From a virus (Duplodnaviria; Heunggongvirae; Uroviricota; Caudoviricetes): 64,000 bases of DNA. Made by a program: the position numbers and the translations under genes. The DNA lies in IMG/VR virus record IMGVR_UViG_2585427757_000006. One strand, written 5' to 3'. Under the pieces are notes generated by a model. The model saw nothing but the letters and a program-made list of their open reading frames with translations, did not search any database and was not told the DNA's origin. How positions within the stretch are numbered: position 1 is the stretch's first letter; each line of letters begins with the position of its first letter. This document shows positions 12,042 to 12,456 of the stretch, piece after piece.

Positions 12042-12456
12042 TTAATGAGCTACAGCCTCACTGTTGCACATCTTTCTGTAGACCTGCTTATAACGCTGTA
12101 AGTCATGAGGATCATTAGGTGCCAACGACTTCGATAGGATTTTGTATACCACCCCTTTCGAAAACATGCCCTTTGGCTTCATTTCGAGTTCAACAACATA
12201 TGAGTGATAGCCCACGTATGCACCAAAGCCCATTTTTGGCGTTCAATTCTCCGCACACAAAGCCTGTCACACTCCCATCGTCATGATCAGTCCTGACAAA
12301 CTTATCTTTCCTAAACATCACCGACGTGGGATCTTTCATATCATCCGCAATTGCTTGTTGGCCCAGAGCAATAGCCTTCTCGTCTGTAGGCTTACACCCC
12401 ACTAAAGCAAACAAAGACAATAAAGCTCCTGTTAAAATCAGCTTATTTTTGCTCAT
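12042..12456 (-). pseudogene. lipoprotein gene split by frameshift at an A5/T5 homopolymer (two ORFs 12190-12456 and 12042-12233)
   Basis: Upstream ORF has signal peptide plus lipobox LVGC; downstream ORF continues in +1 frame right after run ttttt at 12234-12238. Confidence 0.45.

What the first reader, a model, noticed from the sequence alone, without database searches (positions are those of the whole stretch)
12042..12456. Lipoprotein gene interrupted by a frameshift at an A5/T5 homopolymer
The upstream ORF encodes a signal peptide with lipobox LVGC and ends shortly after the run at 12234-12238. The downstream ORF continues the protein in the +1 frame. This is either a sequencing/assembly indel, a phase-variable or programmed shift, or a recent pseudogene.
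Basis: seen in the sequence. Interest (0 to 1): 0.45.

Follow-up and report, generated by a model that had tools for sequence, protein, structure and literature searches.

The report
Recently frameshifted phage-plasmid lipoprotein gene
A small lipoprotein gene on an E. coli phage-plasmid is broken by one extra G next to, not in, the A5 run; this is an ordinary recent loss-of-function mutation confined to one small lineage, not a programmed or phase-variable shift.

Summary
The split gene is real. On the minus strand, an 88-aa ORF (12456..12190, lipobox LVGC) and a 63-aa ORF (12233..12042) together match one 137-aa protein (E = 4.7e-80). The break is not in the A5/T5 run, which lies at 12233-12237 and is unchanged in all relatives. 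It is one extra G in the adjacent run (GG to GGG; + strand CCC at 12229-12231). With that G removed, the gene is nucleotide-identical to the intact 414-nt CDS (WP_021512314.1) of the closest plasmids. All 54 complete E. coli genomes and all 50 PLSDB plasmids that carry the locus lack the extra base. So do 19 loci read directly, 5 viral contigs and 2 metagenome contigs. The broken allele also occurs in GCA_000700445.1 and in an independent Logan assembly of SRR1186735. Both differ from the window by 2 SNPs, so a real inherited mutation is more likely than an assembly error. Intact alleles show pN/pS of 0.00-0.12. The shift cuts the family's most conserved motif and removes two strands, the C-terminal helix and the conserved Cys130. 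Programmed frameshifting, phase variation and a two-gene arrangement are not supported. The protein belongs to an uncharacterised lipoprotein family (PHROG 2320) with a cystatin/NTF2-like fold. Ordinary; low interest.

The parts
12042..12456 (-). Whole disrupted lipoprotein gene: 415 nt here against 414 nt (137 aa plus stop) in intact relatives.
   Evidence: With one G removed it is 100% nucleotide-identical to the CDS encoding WP_021512314.1 in L001-L004.
12190..12456 (-). ORF-A, 88 aa: native residues 1-76 followed by 12 out-of-frame residues (LWCIRGLSLICC) and a TGA stop.
   Evidence: The identical product is in RefSeq as WP_248784199.1 (P0003).
12394..12456 (-). Lipoprotein signal peptide, residues 1-21. 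It has a positively charged n-region (K3, K5), a hydrophobic core, the lipobox L-V-G-C (12394-12405) and the acylated Cys21. Residue +2 is Lys.
   Evidence: Read from the sequence. The Cys is aligned in most of the family members shown in A1. The Pfam LPAM_1 model hits 2 of 50 family members.
12463..12469 (-). Shine-Dalgarno-like AAGGGAA, 6-7 nt upstream of the ATG of ORF-A.
   Evidence: Read from the sequence. Its function as a ribosome-binding site is an inference.
12229..12231 (-). The mutation: a GGG run on the coding strand (+ strand CCC) where all intact relatives have GG. One G has been inserted or duplicated at codon 76, so GGC TTT becomes GGG CTT T.
   Evidence: Alignment. Regex census: 19 intact loci have GG; the window, L005 and L006 have GGG. 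In some searches, every one of the 54 and 50 matching records spans 80 of the 81 query bases.
12233..12237 (-). It is the same length in broken and intact alleles and is not the site of the shift. Together with the following TGG it supplies the ATG that opens ORF-B.
12042..12233 (-). ORF-B, 63 aa. It corresponds to residues 76-137 of the intact protein (strands 3-4, the C-terminal helix and Cys130). It has no signal peptide and no Shine-Dalgarno sequence upstream of its ATG.
   Evidence: The gene callers did not call it in L005 or L006. That it is not expressed is an inference.
12008..12036 (-). GC-rich hairpin just after the stop codon (core GCCGGGC, a 9-nt loop, GCCCGGC at 12011-12033). It has no U-tract. 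It may be the 3' end or a stabiliser of the transcript.
   Evidence: minimum free energy -19.7 kcal/mol, z = -2.83. The terminator scan did not call it, because it lacks a T-run.

Best explanation
The gene is one small lipoprotein gene on an SSU5-type phage-plasmid of E. coli that has very recently been inactivated by a real one-base insertion. A G was duplicated in the GG of codon 76, so GGC became GGG-C (+ strand 12229-12231). The site lies immediately 3' of a conserved A5 run and is not part of it. Translation from the normal start produces a prolipoprotein with native residues 1-76. It then reads 12 wrong-frame codons and stops at 12190-12192. The product has 88 aa, or 68 aa after signal-peptide cleavage. 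It keeps the signal peptide, the lipobox, helix 1 and strands 1-2. It loses half of the family's most conserved motif (CGELNAKN|GFGAYVG), strands 3-4, the C-terminal helix and the conserved Cys130. It therefore very probably cannot fold, which amounts to loss of function. The 63-codon downstream ORF is simply the displaced C-terminal half. It has no ribosome-binding site and no signal peptide and is not expected to be made or exported. Shown: the position and nature of the indel, its rarity, its presence in a second non-identical sequence, the intactness of all other homologues and purifying selection on them, and the predicted fold. Inferred: that the truncated product is non-functional, that ORF-B is silent, and that the intact protein is an outer-membrane-anchored periplasmic accessory lipoprotein (Lys at +2, from the E. 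coli Lol sorting rule). Its biochemical role is unknown.
For: One interrupted gene: the joined ORFs match a 137-aa protein at E = 4.7e-80. Site of the indel: CCC against CC at 12229-12231, with A5 unchanged. Homologues intact: a single 414-nt CDS is annotated in 11 fetched plasmids, from 99.9% down to about 92% identity, and in 8 more loci. None of 54 complete E. coli genomes and none of 50 PLSDB plasmids has the extra base. Viral contigs give 1 with GGG and 5 with GG; metagenomes give 0 and 2. Intact protein variants are on more than 500 contigs, against 3 for the 88-aa product. Real and inherited: the same GGG is in GCA_000700445.1 (L005) and in the Logan assembly of SRR1186735 (L006). These differ from the window by 2 SNPs in 6,267 nt with no gaps. 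Recent: the repaired gene is 100% nucleotide-identical to intact alleles. Not a sloppy assembly: across 64 kb against CP115378, this is the only isolated frame-breaking indel inside a conserved CDS. Functional gene in relatives: pN/pS is 0.00-0.12. The family has 1,356 cluster representatives at E <= 0.001. The conserved motif and the Cys68/Cys130 pair straddle the break. The model is confident (pLDDT 90.2), and the break falls between strand 2 and strand 3.
Against: No reads were available, so a reproducible sequencing error at this site cannot be formally excluded. L005 and L006 are probably the same isolate, so independent support comes from two sources (the window and that isolate), not three. 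The window's own record was not identified. Non-functionality of the truncated lipoprotein is inferred from the model and from conservation, not measured. A residual or altered function of the 68-aa lipidated fragment is possible.
Confidence: 0.85

Rival explanations
1. The extra G is a sequencing or assembly artefact, and the gene is intact in the real molecule.
For: The difference is a single base in a short homopolymer, and it is the only difference from several intact plasmids over 801 nt. No reads were inspected. Other isolates show sporadic one-off disruptions of this gene that could be errors (P0002, P0015).
Against: The same extra G is in a second NCBI assembly whose flanking sequence differs by 2 SNPs. 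It is reproduced by the independent Logan assembly of SRR1186735 and by the IMG/VR copy. A 3-base run is not an error-prone context. The window has no other isolated frame-breaking indel in a conserved CDS over 64 kb.
Confidence: 0.08
2. The allele is expressed by +1 ribosomal frameshifting. The inserted G is followed by CUU-U, the P-site slippery codon used in prfB. A +1 slip there would give a 137-aa product that differs from the intact protein only by F77L.
For: The coding strand reads GGG CUU UGG UGC. After a +1 slip on CUU-U the reading is GGU GCA UAC GUG GGC, that is G-A-Y-V-G, which matches the intact sequence.
Against: The shift is not conserved. All other homologues, including nucleotide-identical ones, encode the protein in one frame. 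The A-site codon is UGG, not a stop or a known hungry codon. There is no AGGGGG-type Shine-Dalgarno element 3 nt upstream; only the adjacent GGG is present. These are comparisons with the established prfB signal, made by reading the sequence. Any slippage would be background level.
Confidence: 0.03
3. The site is a phase-variable contingency switch, working by slipped-strand mispairing or transcriptional slippage at the A5/G2-3 tract, that turns the lipoprotein on and off.
For: The target is a surface or envelope lipoprotein on a mobile element, which is a typical target of phase variation. A few other isolates carry independent frameshifts at short runs, a G4 run in P0002 and an A4 run in P0015.
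Against: The runs are only 2-5 bases long, well below the roughly 7 or more usually needed for high-rate switching (established knowledge). A5 is invariant. GG is found in every other record. The GGG allele is confined to near-identical sequences, which fits a single event.
Confidence: 0.02
4. These are two genuine separate genes with independent starts.
For: ORF-B begins with an ATG.
Against: All homologues are a single ORF. There is no Shine-Dalgarno sequence before the ORF-B ATG. ORF-B corresponds to half of a single folded domain. That ATG is out of frame in the intact alleles.
Confidence: 0.01

Closest known systems
Intact orthologue WP_021512314.1 / WP_000038288.1 (137-aa hypothetical lipoprotein of E. 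coli SSU5-type phage-plasmids such as pECOH89 NC_023916 and pCUVET20-PYO4.2)
   Same: The locus and neighbours are the same: a 258/260-aa hypothetical protein, a Sel1/TPR protein, primase and a DnaB-like helicase. The nucleotide sequence is identical apart from one G.
   Different: The window allele carries GGG instead of GG at codon 76 and therefore encodes an 88-aa truncated product. That product is already in RefSeq as WP_248784199.1.
Ordinary single-base frameshift pseudogenes in accessory genes of plasmids and prophages
   Same: A one-base insertion in an otherwise unchanged gene, rare in the population, with no secondary decay yet.
   Different: Nothing distinctive. The only notable point is that the displaced C-terminal half happens to open with an ATG, so it looks like a second gene.
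prfB (RF2) programmed +1 frameshift site, CUU UGA C
   Same: A CUU-U slippery codon lies directly after the insertion, and a +1 slip there would restore the reading frame.
   Different: There is no in-frame stop at the A-site, no spaced Shine-Dalgarno stimulator and no conservation of the shift among homologues. It resembles the signal in one element only.
Phage-encoded exclusion lipoproteins (Cor of phi80/N15/HK022, Llp of T5)
   Same: Both are small lipoproteins encoded as accessory genes by a temperate phage. Relatives of this element also carry a cor gene elsewhere.
   Different: No sequence similarity was detected (PHROG 2320 is 'unknown function'; no Pfam, NCBIfam or PADLOC hit). The exclusion function was not tested. 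This is an analogy, not membership.
Cystatin / NTF2-like fold proteins (cystatins, latexin, VirB8-like periplasmic domains)
   Different: Sequence identity is only 6-13%. Foldseek gives nothing at E <= 0.001. No protease-inhibitor motifs were examined. The fold is generic and does not define a function.

Membership tests
Bacterial lipoprotein (SPase II substrate) | An N-terminal signal peptide with a positively charged n-region and a hydrophobic h-region, ending in a lipobox [LVI][ASTVI][GAS]C. | tested here: met
   MSKNKLILTGALLSLFA-LVGC, with Cys21. The Cys is aligned in most of the family members shown in A1. Checked by reading the sequence; no dedicated predictor was available.
PHROG 2320 (phage protein family of unknown function) | A significant full-length match to the family HMM. 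| tested here: met
   E = 1.9e-39, 136 bits, residues 5-135 of the repaired protein against profile positions 19-142 of 171.
Programmed +1 ribosomal frameshift (prfB type) | The frameshift is conserved among homologues. | tested here: not met
   All other homologues are in a single frame.
Programmed +1 ribosomal frameshift (prfB type) | A slippery P-site codon (CUU-U) followed by a stop or slowly decoded A-site codon, with a Shine-Dalgarno-like stimulator about 3 nt upstream. | tested here: not met
   CUU-U is present, but the A-site codon is UGG, and only an adjacent GGG lies upstream with no AGGGGG at the right spacing (sequence).
Phase-variable contingency locus (slipped-strand mispairing) | A long homopolymer or short tandem repeat (typically 7 or more units) inside the ORF. 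| tested here: not met
   The runs are A5 and G2/G3.
Phase-variable contingency locus (slipped-strand mispairing) | Tract length is polymorphic among closely related isolates or within a population. | tested here: not met
   Between records, none of 54 genomes, 50 plasmids, 19 loci, 5 viral contigs or 2 metagenome contigs has a different tract length. GGG occurs only in one near-identical lineage. Variation within a culture cannot be tested without reads.
Transcriptional slippage site | A run of about 8-9 or more A or T. | tested here: not met
   The run is A5.
Cystatin / NTF2-like fold | A helix packed against a curved antiparallel beta-sheet, with significant structural superposition on members of the fold. 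| tested here: inconclusive
   [not shown]
Known anti-phage defence or exclusion proteins (PADLOC, Cor) | A match to a defence-system model. | tested here: not met
   There is no PADLOC hit for the lipoprotein or its two downstream neighbours. The Sel1 protein gives only a weak, spurious PtuA hit with no qualifying stretch.

The most novel reading that the evidence does not exclude
The GGG allele may not be a dead gene. The insertion places a prfB-like CUU-U slippery codon exactly where a +1 slip would restore the frame. Low-level recoding could then yield a full-length F77L lipoprotein alongside a lipidated 68-aa fragment, which would amount to a newly arisen, tunable expression state of an envelope lipoprotein on a phage-plasmid.
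Probability: 0.03. Interest if true: 0.35.

Novelty: already known. Interest (0 to 1): 0.08.

Why it matters
It matters little. The result is useful for annotation. The two ORFs at 12042-12456 should be annotated as one frameshifted pseudogene of the WP_021512314.1 family, not as two hypothetical proteins. The frameshift should be placed at the G-run (12229-12231), not at the A5 run. The mildly interesting by-product is the gene family itself. It is a widespread group of small lipoproteins under purifying selection, with 1,356 cluster representatives. It has no Pfam family, it has a confident cystatin/NTF2-like model, and some members are fused to SPOR domains. It is carried by phages and phage-plasmids, and its function is unknown.

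Tried and rejected
1. It gave ...NAKMGFGAY.... I rejected it once the alignment showed the intact sequence is ...NAKNGFGAY..., with A5 kept and GG instead of GGG.
2. Pfam, NCBIfam and PADLOC scans of the repaired or intact protein found no family. A PDB sequence-profile search found nothing meaningful. Foldseek against the PDB found nothing at E <= 0.001. The afdb50 library was unavailable.
3. The promoter and terminator consensus scans of 11850-12750 returned no sites. Only a hairpin without a T-tract lies after the stop codon.
4. I tried to identify the window's own record through the neighbouring primase protein. That allele is common (333 blocks), so the source was not pinned down. All 8 loci returned had the intact 137-aa gene.
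5. Most of the 20 members of the 88-aa protein's 90% cluster are contig-end partials of the intact gene, not further copies of this frameshift.
6. The Pfam hits for P0086 (741 aa) have no qualifying stretches and were ignored.

Full report
**1. What is in the sequence**

The feature lies on the minus strand. ORF-A (12456..12190, 88 aa) begins MSKNKLILTGALLSLFALVGCKPTDEK. It has a basic n-region, a hydrophobic core and the lipobox L-V-G-C with Cys21.

ORF-B (12233..12042, 63 aa; MGFGAYVGYHSYVVELEMK...) overlaps the end of ORF-A and is displaced by one base.

ORF-A continues for 12 more codons past the G-run before its TGA at 12190-12192.

**2. One gene or two**

A fusion of the two ORFs hits an intact 137-aa E. 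coli protein over its whole length (P0001: E = 4.7e-80, 94% identity, 100% coverage). This cannot be a chance juxtaposition.

The window is an SSU5-type phage-plasmid of E. coli.
- The 801-nt region matches about 110-kb non-mobilizable E. coli plasmids. There are 186 matching plasmid records and 203 of 5,426 complete genomes, and every match is on a plasmid.
- Its flanks match SSU5-like phages.
- The window carries tail, capsid, terminase, partition and replication genes.
- This element type is well described (PMC7969092, found).

In every annotated relative I fetched, the locus is a single 414-nt CDS of 137 aa. This holds for 11 plasmids from 99.9% down to about 92% identity, encoding WP_021512314.1, WP_000038288.1 or WP_033870693.1. 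It also holds in 8 further assemblies found through the neighbouring primase.

The gene is one interrupted gene.

**3. Where the frameshift is**

Aligning the window with four intact relatives shows one difference inside the gene. The window has an extra C at 12229-12231 on the + strand (CCC against CC). On the coding strand this is AAAAATGGGCTTTGG against AAAAATGGCTTTGG.

The A5 run is identical in all sequences. A pattern census over all fetched loci gives GG in 19 intact loci and GGG only in the window, L005 and L006.

The intact protein reads ...GELNAKNGFGAYVGYHSY.... My first repair, made by deleting an A, gave ...NAKMGF... and was wrong.

The event is the insertion or duplication of one G at codon 76 (GGC to GGG-C).

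**4. Real mutation or artefact**

The allele is rare.
- All 54 complete E. coli genomes and all 50 PLSDB plasmids that match an 81-nt probe across the site span 80 bases, so they lack the extra base.
- IMG/VR has one GGG contig. Its length matches the NCBI contig below, so it is probably the same genome. IMG/VR has five GG contigs.
- Metagenomes have 0 GGG contigs and 2 GG contigs.
- The exact 88-aa product (WP_248784199.1) is on 3 contigs, whereas intact variants are on more than 500.

The allele is nevertheless not unique to the window.
- GCA_000700445.1 (JNMR01000023.1, locus L005) and the independent Logan assembly of run SRR1186735 (L006) carry the same GGG.
- L005 and L006 are identical to each other. 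They differ from the window by two SNPs (13920 and 15158) in 6,267 nt, with no gaps.
- The allele is therefore present in at least two non-identical sequences, and an independent assembler reproduced it.

The window is not indel-prone. Compared with CP115378 over 64 kb, all other indels are intergenic, in-frame, or compensated within diverged patches. The insertion at 12229 is the only isolated frame-breaking indel inside a conserved CDS.

I put a real, inherited mutation at about 0.85 and an artefact at about 0.08. Only a read pileup can settle this.

**5. Age and consequence**

With one G removed, the window gene is 100% nucleotide-identical to the intact gene of L001-L004. No secondary decay has accumulated, so the event is very recent.

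Intact alleles differ mostly at synonymous sites (pN/pS 0.00-0.12; pS up to 0.26). The single ORF is therefore under purifying selection across its length.

A full HMMER scan finds 1,356 cluster representatives at E <= 0.001. An alignment of 50 of them shows:
- a conserved core, KDPxS..F...VCGEVNAKNxFGAYVG;
- invariant D42, G69, N75 and G82;
- a nearly invariant Cys68/Cys130 pair.

The frameshift cuts inside this motif, right after N75-G76.

AlphaFold2 with this alignment gives a confident model (mean pLDDT 90.2, pTM 0.78). The elements are helix 25-37, strands 47-57, 63-72, 84-94 and 102-111, and helix 116-130.

The truncated product keeps the signal peptide, helix 1 and strands 1-2. It loses strands 3-4, the C-terminal helix and Cys130. 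Loss of function is the straightforward inference.

ORF-B has no Shine-Dalgarno sequence and no signal peptide. The gene callers did not call it in L005 or L006. I infer that it is silent.

**6. Rivals**

- **Programmed +1 frameshifting.** The insertion happens to be followed by CUU-U, the prfB slippery codon, and a +1 slip there would regenerate the frame with an F77L change. However, the A-site codon is UGG, no spaced Shine-Dalgarno stimulator is present, and the shift is absent from all homologues. I give this about 0.03.
- **Phase variation or transcriptional slippage.** The tracts are only 2-5 bases long and no length polymorphism is seen between records. I give this about 0.02.
- **Two separate genes.** This is refuted by the homologue comparison.

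A few other isolates carry different one-off disruptions of the same gene: a G4-run frameshift in P0002, an A4-run frameshift in P0015, and other truncations in P0007, P0013 and P0017. These look like sporadic mutations or errors, not a switch.

**7. What the intact protein is**

The repaired protein belongs to PHROG 2320, of unknown function (E = 1.9e-39). It has no Pfam, NCBIfam or PADLOC family and no solved relative by sequence.

Some distant relatives fuse the domain to a C-terminal SPOR peptidoglycan-binding domain, which suggests a role in the cell envelope.

Lys at position +2 predicts outer-membrane sorting by the E. coli Lol rule (established knowledge, not tested here).

My best guess is an outer-membrane-anchored, periplasm-facing accessory lipoprotein of the phage-plasmid. 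Its biochemical role is unknown, and any exclusion or inhibitor function is speculation.

**8. Verdict**

The split lipoprotein gene is real, but the homopolymer attribution is wrong.

This is an ordinary, already-catalogued frameshift allele in a small lineage of a common E. coli phage-plasmid. Interest is low (0.08).

Noticed in passing
window 1-64000: The whole window is an SSU5-type phage-plasmid of E. coli, about 99% identical to ~110-kb plasmids such as pCUVET20-PYO4.2 and pECOH89. It carries a tail, tape-measure, capsid, portal and terminase module (about 23-50 kb), ParB-like partition genes, primase, a DnaB-like helicase and a DNA ligase.
   Followed up: partly
window 7162-7719 (-): A cluster of four tRNA genes (Ser-tga, Thr-tgt, Tyr-gta, Asn-gtt) is carried by the phage-plasmid. 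The same cluster is annotated in the relative CP115378.
   Followed up: partly
window 9283-10605 (-) compared with L014 7072-11369: The ATP-dependent DNA ligase ORF (440 aa) is intact in the window. In the closest complete plasmid (CP115378) it is split by an ISEcp1-blaCTX-M insertion, and that blaCTX-M is itself annotated as frameshifted.
   Followed up: no
P0002, P0015, P0007, P0013, P0017 (homologues in other E. coli isolates): The same lipoprotein gene carries other sporadic disruptions elsewhere: a late frameshift at a G4 run (P0002, 134 aa), a frameshift at an A4 run (P0015, 113 aa), and three other truncations with foreign tails. Each is seen on only 1-3 contigs.
   Followed up: partly
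[not shown]
   Followed up: partly
window 12645-13835 (+): A divergently transcribed Sel1/TPR-repeat protein with an apparent signal peptide (381 aa as annotated in relatives) neighbours the lipoprotein gene in all relatives. The pairing is conserved and could indicate a functional link.
   Followed up: no
window 11523-11529 within ORF 11140-11916 (-): The downstream 258-aa hypothetical protein exists in two length variants among relatives, 258 and 260 aa. They differ by a 6-nt in-frame indel in a locally diverged patch.
   Followed up: no
window 19513-20350 (+): By position, these ORFs correspond to the TacA-family antitoxin and GNAT-family acetyltransferase toxin pair annotated in the relative CP115378 (L014 20319-21117).
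   Followed up: no
window 8256 and 17341: Relative to CP115378, the window has a 26-nt deletion at about 8256 and a 2-nt difference in a TA dinucleotide repeat at about 17341. The latter lies between ORFs 16474-17223 and 17406-18209.
   Followed up: no
window 12008-12036 (-): A GC-rich hairpin lies directly after the lipoprotein stop codon (minimum free energy -19.7 kcal/mol, z = -2.83). It has no U-tract, so the intrinsic-terminator scan does not call it.
   Followed up: partly
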